A DNA stretch of 64,000 bases from assembly GCA_965197585.1 (NCBI GenBank), contig OZ240215.1, positions 1,152,001 to 1,216,000 of the forward strand, read 5' to 3'. A program made the position numbers and the translations under genes. Positions within the stretch are counted from its first letter, which is position 1. Each line of letters begins with the position of its first letter. This DNA is from Dehalococcoidia bacterium (GTDB lineage: Bacteria > Chloroflexota > Dehalococcoidia > Plut-88900). This document shows, piece after piece, positions 4,332 through 8,984 of this stretch. The notes beneath the pieces are model-generated. The model made no database searches. It saw only the letters and a program-made list of their open reading frames with translations, and was not told where the DNA came from.

Positions 4332-5240
4332 TCACCCCTCAATCCCCGCGTAGTGCAAACTCTGCCCCACAATATCCACCCCCACAAGCTCACTGTGCGC
4401 CGCCAGCAGTTGCCTAGTCACCGGCCCCGGTATCTCACTCCCAATCGGCCTCTTGTCGACCCGGGACACGGGCACGATTCTTGGGCTGGTACGGCTAAAG
4501 AACACCTCGTCGGCGGTGTACAGATCGTAGGGCTGAAGGTCTTCTTCAAGTGCCGGGATCCCGAGACTCTCGGCCAACTCGAACACCACCTGCCTCGATA
4601 CTCCCTGGAGAATGTTGTCGTCCTTGGGCGTCTTGAGAACACCGTCGTTGACGATGAACACGTTGTACCCCAGTCCCTCGGTGACATTGCCTTCCACGTC
4701 CAGCAGCAGGGGCAGTCCCTCCGGGTCGACGTCCCGTGCTTCCAGCTCAGCCAGCACGAAATTCATCCTGCTGTGGTGCTTCACCTTGGCGTCGAGCATC
4801 GAGCTGGAGTAGCTGCGCACCTTGGTGATGATGGCGTGCGCCCCGTCCATGTAAAACCTTGCAAATTCCTCGAAGTGTATCGGCTTGATAATCACGCACA
4901 CGCTCGGGGGGCCATCGACTGAATCTCCACGGGTGATTATTGGGTTTATCGCAAAGTCCCCGACTTCGTTCCGCCGATGGTCGTTCCTCGCCACTCCCTC
5001 GCGGCACACCTCTAACATCTCCTCTTCTCCGAATCCCGGGTCAACCCGCACGTACTTCAACGACCGGTACAGCCTGTTCACATGGTCTTCCAGCCGGAAC
5101 GGCACCCCTCCGAATGTCCGCCCTTGGTCGAAGACCACATCCGCCACCGCAAACCCCCGGTCGTGCGGCGGAAATAGCACCTCGCTATAAGGCACCCACT
5201 CCCCATTGAAATATGCCGTGTAATCGTTGTAGTTTCCCAT
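4332..5240 (-). CDS. PLP fold-type IV aminotransferase (BCAT/D-amino-acid transaminase-like)
   Basis: YFNGEWVP, DRGF, HVNRL, catalytic K in AKVKHH, EGLGYNVF, ILQGVSR. Confidence 0.9.
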   Translation of the reverse strand: MGNYNDYTAYFNGEWVPYSEVLFPPHDRGFAVADVVFDQGRTFGGVPFRLEDHVNRLYRSLKYVRVDPGFGEEEMLEVCREGVARNDHRRNEVGDFAINPIITRGDSVDGPPSVCVIIKPIHFEEFARFYMDGAHAIITKVRSYSSSMLDAKVKHHSRMNFVLAELEARDVDPEGLPLLLDVEGNVTEGLGYNVFIVNDGVLKTPKDDNILQGVSRQVVFELAESLGIPALEEDLQPYDLYTADEVFFSRTSPRIVPVSRVDKRPIGSEIPGPVTRQLLAAHSELVGVDIVGQSLHYAGIEG

Positions 5241-5310: not shown

Positions 5311-6477
5311 TTAACCAACAAATAACTTCACCGGAGCAACGGATTCGGTAGACCCACCCCCCACCAACTCAAACAACTCCACCCCCGGCTCCCGAGCCAT
5401 CCGCATCAGAAACGGCTCCGCATTCATCCACCCCTCCGGACTCCCGACTCCCCTCCGCCCAATCTCCCCCGACGCCACCATCAACGTGGCCAGCGCCGCC
5501 ACAGAGGTAGTTCCCCTCCTCGAATAGTCCTGGGCCTCGAACACCCGCCGGCAGGCCTTCCCGTCCTTCTCTCCCTCCACCCTGACCCGCACAGCCATCG
5601 GCTCATCCAGCGGCTCGATGTCGAAATACGGCTTCCCCTCCTCAGACGACAGGAACGTCATCAGAAATTCCATCGGGCTGGTCTCCAGGCCCGGAACATT
5701 CTCATATGACGTGAATCCCCACCGCACCATCGTCTCCATGAAGTCGTTCCCTTCAGCCTGGTGCAACCCGCCGCTTGCCGTGACCTCGGTCAGGCTGGGT
5801 ATCGACTGTGAGATGGTCACCGGGTCCGGAACGCCCGTGTAATACACCTCCTTCGCCCCGACTGGCGGCAGAAACTCGATCTCTTCCCTATTGGCGAACA
5901 CCCCAGGTTTTACATAATCACCATCGATAAACTGTGGCGCGAGGCCGCTGTTGATCCGAAGAAAGTGTTGTATTGCCGCCGGGTAGTTCAGCGAATAGTT
6001 CCACGAAAACCAGATATTCACTCGACGAGGGACGTCCATACTGTCACAGGCGTATCGAGCCAGCACTCCACTCAAACCCGGCATGATCCCGCATCCGGTC
6101 AGCACGGCGACTCCCTCGTCCTTTGCCTTCCGGTCCCAGTCCGGGTTGAAGAACAGCTCTTCCGCCGGTTCATGGTCGTCGCCCATGTCCACATAGTGCG
6201 TCCCTGTCTCTATCGCCGCCTCTACTACCTTCAACCCATGCAGATGATAAGGCCCGACCGCATTGAACACCGTGTCGACTTTGCTTAGCGCCTCTTTCAA
6301 CCGGACTTTGTCGTCCACGTCCAGTGCCATCCATTCCGCCCCCGTCCTCTCCGACACCCGCCGCGCCCGCTCCCCGTCCTTGTCCGCCGCTACCAGCTCT
6401 ACTCCCTTTCCCTCCTCCGCGATCTGATATGCAATCCCCCGGCCGTGGAACCCGCACCCCAGCACCATTACCTTCAT
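5311..6477 (-). CDS. Saccharopine dehydrogenase-like NAD(P)-dependent oxidoreductase
   Basis: VLGCGFHG, NAVGPY, HYVDM, GCGIMPGLS; start overlaps the upstream stop (ATGA). Confidence 0.85.
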   Translation of the reverse strand: MKVMVLGCGFHGRGIAYQIAEEGKGVELVAADKDGERARRVSERTGAEWMALDVDDKVRLKEALSKVDTVFNAVGPYHLHGLKVVEAAIETGTHYVDMGDDHEPAEELFFNPDWDRKAKDEGVAVLTGCGIMPGLSGVLARYACDSMDVPRRVNIWFSWNYSLNYPAAIQHFLRINSGLAPQFIDGDYVKPGVFANREEIEFLPPVGAKEVYYTGVPDPVTISQSIPSLTEVTASGGLHQAEGNDFMETMVRWGFTSYENVPGLETSPMEFLMTFLSSEEGKPYFDIEPLDEPMAVRVRVEGEKDGKACRRVFEAQDYSRRGTTSVAALATLMVASGEIGRRGVGSPEGWMNAEPFLMRMAREPGVELFELVGGGSTESVAPVKLFVG

Positions 6478-7466
6478 AGTCTCCCCAACAAAGGGGCCAC
6501 CTCTTCGACGTACCGACCCAGCTGCTCAGTCATGTCCGGCCCCACGAACCGCAACACGGGCGTTGTGCATCCGGCATCCACGTAGGACTGGATCTTTTCC
6601 GCCACTTCTTCAGGCGGGCCGTAAGCAACCCAAAGATCGATAAGTCCCGGGGTGACGAATGCGGGCCCGTAGTAGGAGACCAGGAATTGGTGGGCCTGCT
6701 CATAGGCGACGTCCCTGTCATTGTGTATGTTCACCATCAGGTGCAGGCACGAGTCCAAAGCCCCCGCGTCCCGACCCATCCCCGCCGCATACTCCCGTAT
6801 CCTGTCGAATCTCTCCCGGAAATCCTGCGGTTCTATCGCGTCCGTCTGCCACCCGTCCGAATGCTTCGCCACCCGGCGCAGCACCCTTTCCATCAACTCC
6901 GGGCTATAGTCACCCTTGGGGTTTACGGCCAGCCACAGCGGGACCCGGGCCTGGACGGGCTTGGGCAGCGCATCGACTTCCTCGAACTGGAAGAAACGCC
7001 CCTTGTGGGTGACCTTCTCCTCCGACCAGAGCCTCCGCAATATCTCCATCCCCTCCAGCACCCGACCCACCCTCTCCCCCGACGCCACGCCCATCACCTC
7101 TAGCTCTTGAGCGTATTGCGGCCCGTACCGGGCCGACCCGCCGTTTCAGACAGCCAGTATCGTTCGACCCCCCGACAGTACGTCCAGGCTCGCCCACTGG
7201 ATCGCCAGTTGTACGGGGTTGCGAAGCGGGAAGCTGGCCAGGCATATGGTGCCCAGTTTTACATAACTGGTACGTGCAGCAATGGCTGATAGGAGAACAA
7301 GGTAGTCGAGCCTCGGTTTGGACAGCAAATTATCCCCGACCCACACGCCATCAAAGCACCCCGACTCCTCCGCCGCCACCGCCGCATCCACCAGCTCCGA
7401 CACACTAGTCCCCCCAGACACCACAGACCTGTTGGACAAGCTTATTCCGTACTTCGCTCCAGCCAC
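6474..7466 (-). CDS. LLM-class flavin-dependent oxidoreductase with in-frame TGA at codon 107 (candidate selenocysteine; alternatively nonsense mutation)
   Basis: ORFs 7146-7466 and 6474-7097 share one frame: ...LDVLSGGRTILAV-TGA-NGGSARYGPQYAQELEVMG...; read-through gives a full-length 330-aa LLM; hairpin directly downstream of the TGA. Confidence 0.8.
7119..7135 (-). promoter_or_regulatory. Candidate bacterial SECIS hairpin
   Basis: mRNA: UGA AACGGCGGGU CGGCCCG GUA CGGGCCG; perfect 7-bp stem starting at +11 after UGA, loop begins G-U. Confidence 0.6.
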
Positions 7467-7643
7467 TATATGGTGTTCCTTCCACTAGTCCCTCCCCTCT
7501 CCCTTGATGGGAGAGGGCTAGGGCCGTAGGCTCGCTGAGGAGAGTGAGGGTGTTCCTTTAATCTAAGGACTAGCTACACAGAATGGTATCATATACCCTG
7601 GCCAGCTTCTCTAGCTCTTCATCCACAACCGGAGTCCCTCCCC

Positions 7644-8984
7644 ATGCCTGCCAACACCAAGACCCTCGACACCATAATCGTAGGCGGCGGCATCGCCGGC
7701 CTCACCATCGCCTACCGACTCCAGGACCAGGACATCCTCCTCCTGGAAAAAGAAGACTACTGCGGCGGTCGCACGCTCTCCAAACAGATGGGCGAGTACG
7801 TCTACAACATGGGCGCCCAGGTCGTTAACGGCGACGACAGCCTCGTTGCTCCCCTCGCCGACGAGCTCGGTGTCACCCGCAGCCTAATCAACAAGACCAA
7901 GCTCCCGATAATCATGAAAGGCAAACTGGTCGCCGCCTCCAACGAGCCCTCCTTCCTCTGGCAGCTTCCCATCTCTCTATCCGACAAGATCAAGCTCGGG
8001 TGGCGGGTGCTCAACCTCAGGCGCAAGTACGGCGAAGTGCGCAAGGACTTCCCCGACATCAACGACCCCGACATCGTCCACCTCAACTCCATGACCCTCG
8101 CCCAGTACATGAACCTCGAAACCGGAGACCTCCGAGACATTTGGGACACCGTCGCCCTCGCCACCACTACTACCCATGCTGGCGAGTCTTCTGCCTACCA
8201 CCCCATCAGCACCTTCCTACACTTCATGGCGAAGGAGTATTTCGTCAACGGTGGGACCTGGCAAATCACCCGTGCCCTCTGGGACCGACTTTCCGACCAA
8301 ATAGAAACTTCTGCGGAGGTCTCCAGGGTCGAACAGGGCTCGGATGGCGTCACAGTCACCTATTCCCAGGGTGGTCGAACCCACACCGTGCGCGCCCGAA
8401 AATGCGTCATGGCTGTCCCCGCGCCTGTCGCACTCCCCATAATCGATCCTCTTCCCGACTGGAAGCGCGAGGCCCTGGCCGCCGCACGATACGGCTCCAT
8501 AACCAGCGCCGGCTTCCTCCTGGACCGCAACTCCGAGGACTTTCTCGGAAAGGGTGTCTGGCGGGTCCCGACCGTGCGCAGCCACCTCGTATCCGTTACA
8601 AACCCCACCATCACCTTCCCCCAGGAGGTAAAGGACAGGACGGGCCAGGGTCTCCTGCGCGTCTATACCGCCGACGCAGAGTCCAAGCGGCTCTCCATGC
8701 TCTCCGACGGCGAGGCCCTAGAGTCCCTCATGGAAGAGCTCTACGCCGTCCTCCCCGACACCCGTGGCCACGTCATAATCGGCGCACTGAAGCACTGGGA
8801 ACACGGCGGAAGCCCCTGGCTCGTTGGTCGGCTGACCCACGTCCCCAACATCCAGGCCCCCACCGACAACATCCACTACGCCGGAGACTACACCGCCGGC
8901 TCCGGCATGGACGCCGCCGTCCACTCCGCCTCCCGAGTCCTCACCGAACTAGGCCACGGCCCCCTCTTCCCCACCCCCGCCTAA
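7644..8984 (+). CDS. FAD-dependent oxidoreductase, flavin amine oxidase/HemY-like family
   Basis: IIVGGGIAGL...LEKEDYCGGR, GAQ, C-terminal HYAGDY...MDAAVHSA. Confidence 0.85.
   Translation: MPANTKTLDTIIVGGGIAGLTIAYRLQDQDILLLEKEDYCGGRTLSKQMGEYVYNMGAQVVNGDDSLVAPLADELGVTRSLINKTKLPIIMKGKLVAASNEPSFLWQLPISLSDKIKLGWRVLNLRRKYGEVRKDFPDINDPDIVHLNSMTLAQYMNLETGDLRDIWDTVALATTTTHAGESSAYHPISTFLHFMAKEYFVNGGTWQITRALWDRLSDQIETSAEVSRVEQGSDGVTVTYSQGGRTHTVRARKCVMAVPAPVALPIIDPLPDWKREALAAARYGSITSAGFLLDRNSEDFLGKGVWRVPTVRSHLVSVTNPTITFPQEVKDRTGQGLLRVYTADAESKRLSMLSDGEALESLMEELYAVLPDTRGHVIIGALKHWEHGGSPWLVGRLTHVPNIQAPTDNIHYAGDYTAGSGMDAAVHSASRVLTELGHGPLFPTPA

What the first reader, a model, noticed from the sequence alone, without database searches (positions are those of the whole stretch)
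6474..7466. Candidate selenocysteine-containing luciferase-like monooxygenase (in-frame UGA plus SECIS-like hairpin)
Seen: the two ORF pieces are in one frame, split only by TGA (7146-7148). Read-through gives an intact 330-aa LLM whose stop overlaps the next gene's start, with no other sign of decay. Ten nt after the UGA is a perfect 7-bp stem with a GUA loop (CGGCCCG-GUA-CGGGCCG). Established: bacterial SECIS elements such as E. coli fdhF are hairpins just 3' of UGA, with the functional stem about 11 nt away and a G (often GU) at the start of the apical loop. Inference: the UGA encodes Sec near the end of a barrel strand, and I do not know LLMs as an established selenoprotein family. I recall Cys at this position in the CxASFPLR...QWASLD subfamily but could not verify it. 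The two other LLMs in this window have Gly there, so a GGA/TGY>TGA nonsense change or base error remains possible.
Basis: partly seen in the sequence, partly recalled or inferred. Interest (0 to 1): 0.88.

Follow-up and report, generated by a model that had tools for sequence, protein, structure and literature searches.

The report
Selenocysteine in a luciferase-like oxidoreductase
The in-frame TGA in this luciferase-like flavin/F420 enzyme gene is almost certainly a real selenocysteine codon, kept in nine related species where all other relatives have cysteine, which would add an enzyme family not listed in a 2026 inventory of bacterial selenoproteins.

Summary

- **Gene:** minus strand, 7466..6474, a 330-codon luciferase-like (LLM, PF00296) TIM-barrel gene with one in-frame TGA (7148-7146, codon 107).
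- **Hairpin:** 10 nt after the TGA lies CGGCCCG-GUA-CGGGCCG (7135-7119).
- **Sec machinery:** the genome has tRNA-Sec, SelA, SelB and a Sec-containing SelD. It also uses TGA as a normal stop.
- **Conservation:** all 9 species genomes of the genus, plus one metagenome contig, keep the TGA and the identical hairpin, down to 80% protein identity.
- **Translation past the TGA:** the 222 codons after it are under purifying selection (dN/dS 0.01-0.16).
- **Cys in relatives:** every close non-TGA relative examined (36-66% identity) has Cys in that column.
- **SECIS style:** the hairpin matches that of this genome's SelD, SelW-like and UGSC genes. Only 0.15% of all TGA triplets in the genome have such a hairpin.
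- **New point:** Sec107 co-occurs with a second conserved Cys (Cys75). The two sit at the ends of neighbouring barrel strands on the catalytic face, which suggests a redox-active Cys/Sec pair.
- **Novelty:** LLMs are not among the 119 prokaryotic selenoprotein families listed in a 2026 review.
- **Caveats:** the Sec form has a single origin, there are no compensatory changes in the stem, 3 of 58 Cys copies carry a similar hairpin, and there is no protein-level evidence.

The parts
6474..7466 (-). Gene for a 330-residue luciferase-like (LLM, PF00296) oxidoreductase. It has a GTG start at 7466 and its true stop is TGA at 6476-6474.
   Evidence: AlphaFold2 model with pLDDT 96.6. TIM-barrel LLM fold, TM 0.75-0.82 to solved LLMs.
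7146..7148 (-). In-frame UGA, codon 107, read as selenocysteine.
   Evidence: Conserved in 9 of 9 genus genomes and in L091. Aligned with Cys in all other close homologs.
7119..7135 (-). SECIS-like hairpin: 5' arm 7135-7129, GUA loop 7128-7126, 3' arm 7125-7119. It starts 10 nt after the UGA and encodes A-R-Y-G-P.
   Evidence: It is the longest nucleotide-invariant run (17 nt) in the 972-nt alignment of 8 orthologs. It has the same style as the SelD, SelW-like and UGSC hairpins of this genome. Background frequency is 0.15%.
7242..7244 (-). Cys75 codon (TGC), the proposed partner of Sec107.
   Evidence: Co-occurrence of C75 and C/U107 in alignment A1: both 71, one only 3 + 3, neither 42, of 119 rows. 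In the model it sits just after strand beta3 (70-73), next to beta4 (102-106).
6474..6477 (-). ATGA overlap of the LLM stop with the start of the next gene (translational coupling).
5311..6477 (-). Downstream gene in the same operon: a saccharopine-dehydrogenase-like NAD(P)-binding protein.
   Evidence: Pfam PF03435. It is adjacent in all 9 genus genomes.
4332..5240 (-). Next downstream gene: a class IV aminotransferase.
   Evidence: Pfam PF01063. It is conserved next to the cluster in the genus loci.
7644..8984 (+). Divergently transcribed flavin-containing amine oxidase.
   Evidence: Pfam PF01593. It is conserved upstream in the 9 genus genomes and in L091.

Best explanation
**What it is.** The gene encodes a genuine selenoprotein. 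It is a luciferase-like (LLM) TIM-barrel oxidoreductase that uses F420 or FMN. Codon 107 (UGA) is decoded as selenocysteine by SelB and tRNA-Sec, directed by the 17-nt hairpin 10 nt downstream.

**How it arose.** Sec replaced the second Cys of a conserved Cys pair (Cys75 / Cys107). This pair defines a subfamily of LLMs found in Chloroflexota, Entotheonella and Alphaproteobacteria. The replacement happened once, in the ancestor of one genus.

**What is shown.**
- The UGA, the hairpin, the Sec machinery and the Sec/Cys alignment.
- Purifying selection after the UGA.
- The position of both residues at the C-terminal ends of adjacent strands beta3 and beta4, on the catalytic face of the barrel.

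**What is inferred.**
- Sec107 and Cys75 form a redox-active selenenylsulfide/selenol-thiol pair beside the (deaza)flavin. This pair would couple hydride transfer to the substrate.
- The enzyme works in an amine or amino-acid pathway with its conserved neighbours (amine oxidase, saccharopine-dehydrogenase-like protein, class IV aminotransferase).

**Confidence.** The confidence given (0.88) is for the Sec decoding. The redox-pair role alone I put at about 0.4.
For: **Sec machinery in the genome**
- tRNA-Sec at 65.8 bits; ARAGORN calls SeC with anticodon tca.
- SelA at 449.7 bits.
- SelB wing domain at 71.9 bits in a 620-aa frame.
- SelD with its own in-frame TGA, HCAG-U-ASK.
- TGA is otherwise a normal stop: 615 of 2096 open frames of 300 or more codons end in TGA.

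**Conservation of the TGA**
- 9 of 9 species genomes of the genus have the ortholog (80-100% identity) with exactly one TGA, at the same codon.
- One metagenome contig, L091 (84% identity), has it too.

**Selection after the TGA**
- dN/dS is 0.013-0.158 over the 222 codons after the TGA, with dS 0.31-1.14.
- dN/dS is 0.023-0.121 over the 101 codons compared before it.

**Cys in the same column in relatives**
- 9 of 9 paralogs at 36-45% identity.
- 21 of 21 loci L037-L057, including the 62% ortholog of G208.
- 14 of 14 genome contigs orthologs at 51-61% identity.
- 12 of 13 metagenome loci that span the column; the 13th is the TGA copy L091.
- 120 of the 120 best public full-length proteins, at 61-66% identity.

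**Hairpin**
- It is identical in 10 of 10 TGA copies.
- It is the longest invariant run of the gene.
- Its five codons show no synonymous change, while 74% of the 225 invariant-residue degenerate codons do.
- This genome's other selenoprotein genes use the same short stem plus GU-loop style:
  - SelD: AGGACCUG[GUC]CAGGUCCU.
  - SelW-like: CCGUCA[GUC]UGACGG.
  - UGSC genes: GUGCA[GUU]UGCAC.

**Single origin**
- In the quick tree the Sec clade is one branch (SH-aLRT 100), nested among Cys forms.

**Public gene calls**
- They stop at the TGA: P0061 ends at ...GRTILAV.

**Redox-pair idea**
- C75 and C107 co-occur: 71 both, 6 one only, 42 neither.
- The model puts C75 just after beta3 (70-73) and U107 just after beta4 (102-106).
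- In LuxAB, residues alpha-Ala74, alpha-Ala75 and alpha-Cys106 line the FMN pocket (PMC10696468, passage seen). The residue-level equivalence to this protein is my inference and was not tested.
- The genome has CofD and CofH, so it can make F420.
Against: - **No protein-level evidence.** The RNA evidence is only a 186-nt contig of one metatranscriptome run that covers 6839-7024.
- **One evolutionary event.** All TGA copies belong to one clade, so the ten copies are one event that has been retained, not independent origins.
- **No covariation.** The stem is invariant, so it gives no compensatory changes.
- **Hairpin not exclusive to TGA alleles.** 3 of 58 Cys copies (L061, L063, L067; Rhodospirillaceae; peptide PGRFGP or PDRFGP) carry a similar hairpin of 6-7 bp with a GUU loop at the same offset. 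The G208 Cys ortholog has a different 7-bp hairpin nearby. So part of the structure follows from the encoded peptide in GC-rich DNA.
- **Thermodynamics alone.** The local fold is not exceptional (z = -1.77).
- **One damaged copy.** The ortholog in G005 is split by a frameshift near codon 230.
- **Role and cofactor untested.** The redox-pair role, the cofactor and the substrate are inferences. The best F420-type NCBIfam model stays below its cut-off (131.4 against 166.9 bits). No distance between residues 75 and 107 could be measured with these tools.
Confidence: 0.88

Rival explanations
1. The gene is split. Translation ends at UGA107, giving a 106-residue N-terminal piece, and restarts at the in-frame GTG/ATG (codons 124/125), giving a 207-residue C-terminal piece. 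The two pieces then assemble into one barrel.
For: - An in-frame GTG-ATG lies 17-18 codons after the TGA.
- In the 80%-identity orthologs an AAGGAG lies 9 nt before that ATG.
- Public gene callers report such pieces (P0058, P0061).
- Both halves would be under purifying selection in this case as well.
Against: - The TGA sits exactly on a Cys that is invariant in close relatives.
- The 16 codons between the TGA and the GTG keep their reading frame and residues while changing synonymously.
- The AAGGAG encodes the conserved K-E of (K/Q)ELEVMG.
- The organism has full Sec machinery and many other selenoprotein genes.
- The hairpin has the offset and loop type of this genome's own SECIS elements.
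Confidence: 0.05
2. UGA107 is read through without selenium, for example by near-cognate Trp or Cys insertion, with the hairpin only slowing termination.
For: - The frame is kept open and selected after the TGA.
- Nothing in the DNA alone proves which residue is inserted.
Against: - tRNA-Sec, SelA, SelB and SelD are present in this genome.
- SelA is present in the 8 other genus genomes.
- The hairpin matches the style found after the UGA of SelD and other known-type selenoprotein genes of the genome.
- TGA is a normal stop in the genome.
- Alignment of UGA with Cys is the standard signature of Sec.
Confidence: 0.04
3. The gene is a pseudogene, or the TGA is a sequencing error.
For: - One ortholog (G005) has a frameshift.
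- A relative in G058 has a TGA at a conserved Trp, which does look like a nonsense change or an error.
Against: - The same TGA is found in 9 species genomes and one metagenome contig.
- It is also found in contigs from three studies.
- dN/dS is 0.01-0.16 on both sides.
- There is no other stop or frameshift in 8 of the 9 genome orthologs.
Confidence: 0.01

Closest known systems
Bacterial SelB-dependent selenoprotein genes with an in-ORF SECIS (model case: E. coli fdhF)
   Same: - An in-frame UGA is followed at about 10-11 nt by a short hairpin with GU in the apical loop.
- tRNA-Sec, SelA, SelB and SelD are present in the genome.
- Cys stands in the same column in homologs.
- The hairpin style is shared with SelD, SelW-like and UGSC genes of the same genome.
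- The fdhF details (17-nt minimal element, 11-nt spacing) are recalled, not taken from a call.
   Different: - The host protein family (LLM, PF00296) is not among the 119 families and subfamilies in Table 1 of PMC13188914 (section 7, parts 1 and 2 read).
- The stem is a perfect 7-bp GC stem with a 3-nt loop and no bulged U.
F420-dependent LLM oxidoreductases (Mer, Fgd1, Adf; NCBIfam TIGR03619 and TIGR03560 types)
   Same: - Same TIM-barrel fold: TM 0.75-0.82 to 8qpl, 5lxe, 3b4y and 1rhc.
- The best NCBIfam hits are F420-type LLM models.
- The genome encodes CofD and CofH.
   Different: - All NCBIfam scores are below the family cut-offs.
- In the three solved LLMs whose alignments were shown, the column of U107 is Gly: Mer GIGPG, 8cbb GIGRG, 8k74 GFGSG.
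- This subfamily instead has Cys or Sec there, plus a second Cys at position 75.
Bacterial luciferase LuxA (residues alpha-Ala74, alpha-Ala75 and alpha-Cys106 at the FMN pocket)
   Same: - Same fold: 1luc_A has TMq 0.81.
- In LuxAB, residues alpha-Ala74, alpha-Ala75 and alpha-Cys106 surround the flavin pocket and affect the C4a-(hydro)peroxyflavin (PMC10696468, passage seen).
- Here Cys75 and Sec107 lie at the ends of beta3 and beta4, with almost the same numbering.
   Different: - The residue-level equivalence was not tested. It rests on numbering, secondary structure and recall.
- LuxA has no second Cys at position 74/75 according to that passage, and it is not a selenoprotein.
Sec evolved from redox-active Cys in bacterial oxidoreductases (pattern described in PMC1794560; title and abstract seen in the listing)
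   Same: A lineage-restricted Sec form is nested among widespread Cys forms, in an organism rich in selenoproteins.
   Different: Most listed families have a thioredoxin-like fold with a UxxC or CxxU motif (PMC13188914). Here the two residues are 32 positions apart in sequence, on neighbouring strands of a TIM barrel.

Membership tests
Bacterial selenoprotein (SelB/SECIS-decoded UGA) | In-frame UGA conserved among orthologs | tested here: met
   9 of 9 genus genomes, the same codon in each, plus L091.
Bacterial selenoprotein (SelB/SECIS-decoded UGA) | Cys-containing homologs aligned with the UGA | tested here: met
   9/9; 21/21; 14/14; 12 of 13; the 13th is a TGA copy; 120/120.
Bacterial selenoprotein (SelB/SECIS-decoded UGA) | Hairpin just 3' of the UGA with G/GU in the apical loop | tested here: met
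   Background frequency is 139 of 95,357 TGA triplets. Caveats: 3 of 58 Cys copies have a similar hairpin, and there is no covariation.
Bacterial selenoprotein (SelB/SECIS-decoded UGA) | tRNA-Sec, SelA, SelB and SelD in the genome | tested here: met
   SelA is also present in the other 8 genus genomes.
Bacterial selenoprotein (SelB/SECIS-decoded UGA) | Coding constraint continues after the UGA | tested here: met
   dN/dS is 0.013-0.158 over 222 codons.
Bacterial selenoprotein (SelB/SECIS-decoded UGA) | Selenium physically present in the protein | not testable with these tools
   Needs 75Se labelling or mass spectrometry.
Luciferase-like monooxygenase superfamily (PF00296) | Pfam model over its gathering score, and a TIM-barrel LLM fold | tested here: met
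   163.8 bits against a cut-off of 27.9. Model pLDDT 96.6. Foldseek TM 0.75-0.82 to LLM structures.
F420-dependent LLM class (for example TIGR03619, TIGR03560, Mer) | Score over the curated cut-off of an F420-type model | tested here: not met
   The best is TIGR03619 at 131.4 bits against 166.9; all others are also below their cut-offs. The genome can make F420, so F420 use remains possible but unproven.
Any of the 119 listed prokaryotic selenoprotein families (PMC13188914, Table 1) | Same domain family listed in the table | tested here: not met
   There is no LLM, PF00296 or monooxygenase entry in section 7, parts 1-2. The main text of BSepDB does not mention one either. The BSepDB website and supplements could not be seen.
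LuxA-type active-site Cys (alpha-Cys106) | Residue-level structural equivalence of U107 with LuxA Cys106 | not tested
   Only fold similarity (1luc_A) and a passage on LuxAB residues. No residue mapping was available.

The most novel reading that the evidence does not exclude
The Cys75/Sec107 pair marks an unrecognised class of (deaza)flavin-dependent TIM-barrel enzymes. These would run a thiol-selenol (or dithiol) redox relay at the cofactor. In one genus the reactive Cys was upgraded to Sec, using a hairpin that already existed as a by-product of the (G/A)-R-(F/Y)-G-P coding sequence and was co-opted as a SECIS. Together with a conserved Sec in an M20 amidohydrolase of the same genomes, this would point to a selenoproteome in these bacteria that reaches well beyond thioredoxin-fold proteins.
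Probability: 0.3. Interest if true: 0.75.

Novelty: new variant of a known kind. Interest (0 to 1): 0.62.

Why it matters
- **A new host family for Sec.** Sec decoding itself is well known. An LLM-type flavin/F420 enzyme carrying Sec appears in none of the following:
  - the 2026 inventory of 119 prokaryotic selenoprotein families;
  - the three literature searches made here.
- **Annotation gap.** Public gene calls cut this gene at the TGA. The best 120 full-length public proteins in the search output reach only 66% identity. So the Sec form is effectively invisible in databases.
- **A pointer to the reactive residue.** Sec marks the most reactive residue of an enzyme. It therefore flags position 107, together with its covarying partner Cys75, as catalytic in a large, uncharacterised LLM subfamily. 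The host lineage carries about 70 LLM matches per genome.
- **Testable chemistry.** This gives a concrete handle (U107C and C75S variants, cofactor and substrate screens) on what these expanded LLM families do.

Tried and rejected
**Explanations rejected**
- **Genome-wide TGA reassignment.** Rejected: 615 of 2096 long open frames end in TGA, and the gene's own stop is TGA.
- **Independent TGA alleles in other lineages.** None were found.
  - The class-wide search covered 401 genomes, of which 38 had a match at E <= 1e-60. It gave one other '1 TGA' hit (G058), but that TGA lies on the conserved Trp of VWVGD, not on the Cys column.
  - Fragment proteins that start at Met125 (P0028, P0075, P0132) looked like possible products of further TGA alleles. 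The loci found with P0028 all have Cys. P0075 and P0132 were not traced.

**Searches that gave nothing useful**
- **Rfam.** No family matched on 6400-7650 (two chance-level hits in the intergenic repeat).
- **LuxA residue mapping.**
  - get_proteins does not take PDB chain ids.
  - Searches with sub-ranges of the protein showed only chains with Gly in that column and never LuxA itself.
  - The Cys106 equivalence therefore stays untested.
- **RNA evidence.** The metatranscriptome run X17 covers only parts of 6702-7043. I do not count this as expression evidence.

**Incomplete or faulty steps**
- The careful maximum-likelihood tree did not finish in 300 s, so the quick tree is used.
- The regular expressions were off by one column. 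They were replaced.
- The dN/dS part crashed and was redone.
- In one search two copies (L034, L044) were mis-registered by BLAST because of a one-residue insertion. L034 shows Cys by MAFFT and L044 by inspection.
- My coding-signature filter (521 candidates) did not retain the LLM gene itself. That scan is therefore a rough list and not a selenoproteome.
- Metagenome loci L093-L102 (29% identity or less) were not examined.
- Supplements and the BSepDB website could not be seen and might list an LLM entry.
Full report
**1. Observation**

- The gene lies on the minus strand, from a GTG at 7466 to a TGA at 6476-6474.
- One in-frame TGA sits at 7148-7146, which is codon 107.
- Read-through gives 330 residues with no other stop.
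- The true stop overlaps the ATG of the next gene as ATGA.
- Pfam PF00296 (luciferase-like monooxygenase) covers residues 12-301, on both sides of the TGA.
- Ten nucleotides after the UGA lies the perfect hairpin CGGCCCG-GUA-CGGGCCG at 7135-7119.

**2. The organism can decode Sec**

The single-contig genome (3.43 Mb; completeness 91.9%) holds the full machinery:

| Component | Evidence |
|---|---|
| tRNA-Sec | 65.8 bits; ARAGORN calls SeC, anticodon tca |
| SelA | 449.7 bits |
| SelB | wing domain in a 620-aa frame |
| SelD | has its own in-frame TGA, HCAG-U-ASK |

- TGA is still a normal stop: 615 of 2096 open frames of 300 or more codons end in it.
- A rough scan found many genes of known selenoprotein types with in-frame TGA. 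These are SelW-like (CTLU), Prx-like (UPYC), DsbA-like (UPWC), Trx-like (CUVNC), three UGSC genes, a CMD-like gene (ECAVU) and an FdhA-like gene (UHAP). The family names follow motifs listed in the review table and my own recall.
- SelA is also present in the eight other genomes of the genus and in G208 and G010.

**3. Comparative test of the TGA**

- The genome collection holds one genome per species.
  - A search of the 20 nearest genomes found the ortholog in all 9 genomes of the genus (80-100% protein identity).
  - Each has exactly one TGA, at the same codon.
  - In G005 the gene is also split by a frameshift near codon 230.
- One metagenome contig (L091, 84% identity, cut by the contig end) also has the TGA.
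- A sample of 401 genomes of the class gave matches at E <= 1e-60 in 38. The TGA at this column was seen only in the genus.
- The one other '1 TGA' hit (G058) has its TGA on the conserved Trp of VWVGD, so it is a nonsense change or an error.
- Contigs of public runs from three studies span the TGA. No difference is listed between 7119 and 7148, although 47 differences were not shown.

**4. What relatives have in that column**

Every close non-TGA relative has Cys:

| Set | Identity | Cys in column |
|---|---|---|
| Paralogs | 36-45% | 9 of 9 |
| Loci L037-L057 (two duplicate earlier loci), including the closest stop-free ortholog in the genome searches (G208, 62%) | 38-62% | 21 of 21 |
| Orthologs from Chloroflexota, Entotheonella and Rhodospirillaceae/Alphaproteobacteria assemblies | 51-61% | 14 of 14 |
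| Metagenome loci that span the column | 38-60% | 12 of 13; the 13th is the TGA copy L091 (84%) |
| Best full-length public proteins | 61-66% | 120 of 120 |

- None of the 120 best full-length public proteins listed exceeds 66% identity. The Sec clade appears instead as fragments such as P0061, which ends at ...GRTILAV.
- In a 119-row alignment reaching down to 29% identity, the column is C in 74 rows (7 of them Sec), G in 38, S in 5 and A in 2.
- The three solved LLMs whose alignments were shown have Gly there.

**5. Translation continues past the TGA**

- Among eight full-length orthologs, dN/dS over the 222 codons after the TGA is 0.013-0.158, with dS 0.31-1.14.
- This is much like the 0.023-0.121 over the 101 codons compared before it.
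- The codons between the TGA and the first possible restart keep their residues while changing synonymously.
- This excludes a pseudogene or a base error, and it argues against a split gene.

**6. The hairpin**

- It is identical in 10 of 10 TGA copies.
- In the 972-nt alignment, 61% of columns are invariant. The longest invariant run is 17 nt and coincides exactly with the hairpin.
- 74% of the 225 invariant-residue degenerate codons vary synonymously, but the five hairpin codons do not.
- Its form matches this genome's other selenoprotein genes:

| Gene | Hairpin | Loop start after UGA |
|---|---|---|
| SelD | AGGACCUG[GUC]CAGGUCCU | +27 |
| SelW-like | CCGUCA[GUC]UGACGG | +22 |
| UGSC | GUGCA[GUU]UGCAC | +19 |
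| Trx-like | UUUCCGC[AGUU]GCGGAAA | +25 |
| This LLM | CGGCCCG[GUA]CGGGCCG | +17 |

- Only 139 of 95,357 TGA triplets (0.15%) have a stem of 7 bp or more with a GUN triloop at +15 to +30.

Points against the hairpin as evidence:
- The stem never varies, so there is no compensatory evidence.
- The 71-nt fold has z = -1.77 only.
- 3 of 58 Cys copies (L061, L063, L067) carry a similar hairpin at the same offset.
- G208 has a different 7-bp hairpin nearby.

I read this as a structure partly given by the peptide (G/A)-R-(F/Y)-G-P in GC-rich DNA. It was then fixed as a SECIS in the Sec clade. This reading is an inference.

**7. Evolution**

- In a quick maximum-likelihood tree of 60 rows, the Sec sequences form one clade (SH-aLRT 100).
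- That clade sits inside a supported group whose 20 other rows all have Cys. The careful search did not finish.
- One Cys-to-Sec change in the ancestor of the genus is enough.

**8. Where the residue sits and what it may do**

- The AlphaFold2 model is confident (pLDDT 96.6, pTM 0.93). It matches LLM structures at TM 0.75-0.82, including F420-dependent Mer and Fgd1 and bacterial luciferase.
- Strand beta3 is residues 70-73, with a bridge at 76. Strand beta4 is residues 102-106.
- Cys75 and Sec107 are therefore the first residues after two neighbouring strands, on the C-terminal face of the barrel. From general knowledge of the fold, that is where LLMs bind their cofactor.
- The two positions covary: both Cys in 71 rows, one only in 3 + 3, neither in 42, of 119 rows. 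The rows are related, so this is not a statistical test.
- In LuxAB, residues alpha-Ala74, alpha-Ala75 and alpha-Cys106 line the FMN pocket and affect the C4a-(hydro)peroxyflavin (PMC10696468, passage seen). The near-identical numbering suggests equivalence, but I could not map residues.
- My best mechanistic guess (about 40%) is a redox-active Cys75-Sec107 pair beside the cofactor.
- The cofactor is open. The best NCBIfam models are F420-type but fall below their cut-offs. The genome encodes CofD and CofH.
- The neighbourhood is conserved in all 9 genus genomes, and in part in L091. It consists of a divergent amine oxidase, the LLM, a saccharopine-dehydrogenase-like gene and a class IV aminotransferase. 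This hints at amine or amino-acid chemistry.

**9. Comparison with what is known**

- The decoding system is the ordinary bacterial one.
- The protein family is new for Sec, as far as I could check.
  - Table 1 of the 2026 review, which lists 119 families and subfamilies, has no LLM entry (PMC13188914, section 7, parts 1-2 read).
  - The main texts of BSepDB and deep-Sep mention none.
  - Three searches found no relevant paper:
    - 'selenoprotein' + 'luciferase-like' found 2 irrelevant papers.
    - 'selenoprotein' + 'SAR202' found 0.
    - 'selenocysteine' + 'luciferase-like monooxygenase' found 0.
  - Supplements and database websites were not visible.

**10. Verdict**

- This is a real, conserved Sec codon (about 0.9) in an LLM oxidoreductase.
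- It is a new selenoprotein family within a known decoding system, confined so far to one genus.
- The catalytic role of the Cys75/Sec107 pair is a testable inference.

Noticed in passing
Own genome G000:C1:1539389-1540558 (-), outside the window; locus L108:90-1259 (-): A second conserved in-frame TGA sits in a 390-residue M20-type amidohydrolase, at U103 in GKMHA-U-GHDGH (the family and motif names are recalled). It is followed by the hairpin ACGUAGC[CGUG]GCUAUGU. The search reports '1 TGA' in all 9 genus genomes (split in G002) and in G009 of another genus (68% identity), but the codon position was not checked outside G000. G018 (50% identity) has no stop. This family is not in Table 1 of PMC13188914 as read. 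It may be another unlisted selenoprotein family.
   Followed up: partly
window 7462-7556 (palindrome at 7495-7517): An intergenic repeat carries CCCTCTCCC-N5-GGGAGAGGG. There are 64 matches to the pattern CCCTCTCCC, 3-8 nt, GGGAGAGGG in the genome. Summed contig depth in the laid runs is very high: thousands to tens of thousands in three of them and up to about 620 in the RNA run. Many loose ends start at 7493 and 7523. This looks like a multi-copy palindromic element, also common in other organisms of those samples.
   Followed up: partly
Own genome, several places (one search list): The genome is rich in selenoprotein genes of known types: SelD, SelW-like, Prx-like, DsbA-like, Trx-like, three UGSC paralogs, CMD-like and FdhA-like. 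Most have short-stem GU-loop hairpins. My scan was rough and is not a complete selenoproteome.
   Followed up: partly
L035/L036 (G005:C1:2140233-2141215): The Sec-LLM ortholog of one species is split by a frameshift near codon 230, while its TGA and hairpin are intact. This is either an assembly error or recent decay.
   Followed up: no
L038 (G058:C17:226-1194): A 45%-identity Cys-type homolog has a TGA in place of the conserved Trp of VWVGD. It is a nonsense mutation or an error, not Sec.
   Followed up: yes
L058-L071 (genome contigs): The closest Cys orthologs (51-61% identity) come from three phyla: Chloroflexota, Candidatus Entotheonella and Alphaproteobacteria/Rhodospirillaceae. They group together in the quick tree, which suggests horizontal transfer of this LLM subfamily. 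Two alphaproteobacterial loci (L064, L066) also have a class IV aminotransferase next to the gene.
   Followed up: partly
L061, L063, L067 (Rhodospirillaceae Cys orthologs): A hairpin similar to the SECIS (for example CGGGCCG[GUU]CGGUCCG at +17) follows the Cys codon. Between these three copies there are pair-preserving differences (G-U, A-U and C-G against U-G). Whether it has a function there is unknown.
   Followed up: no
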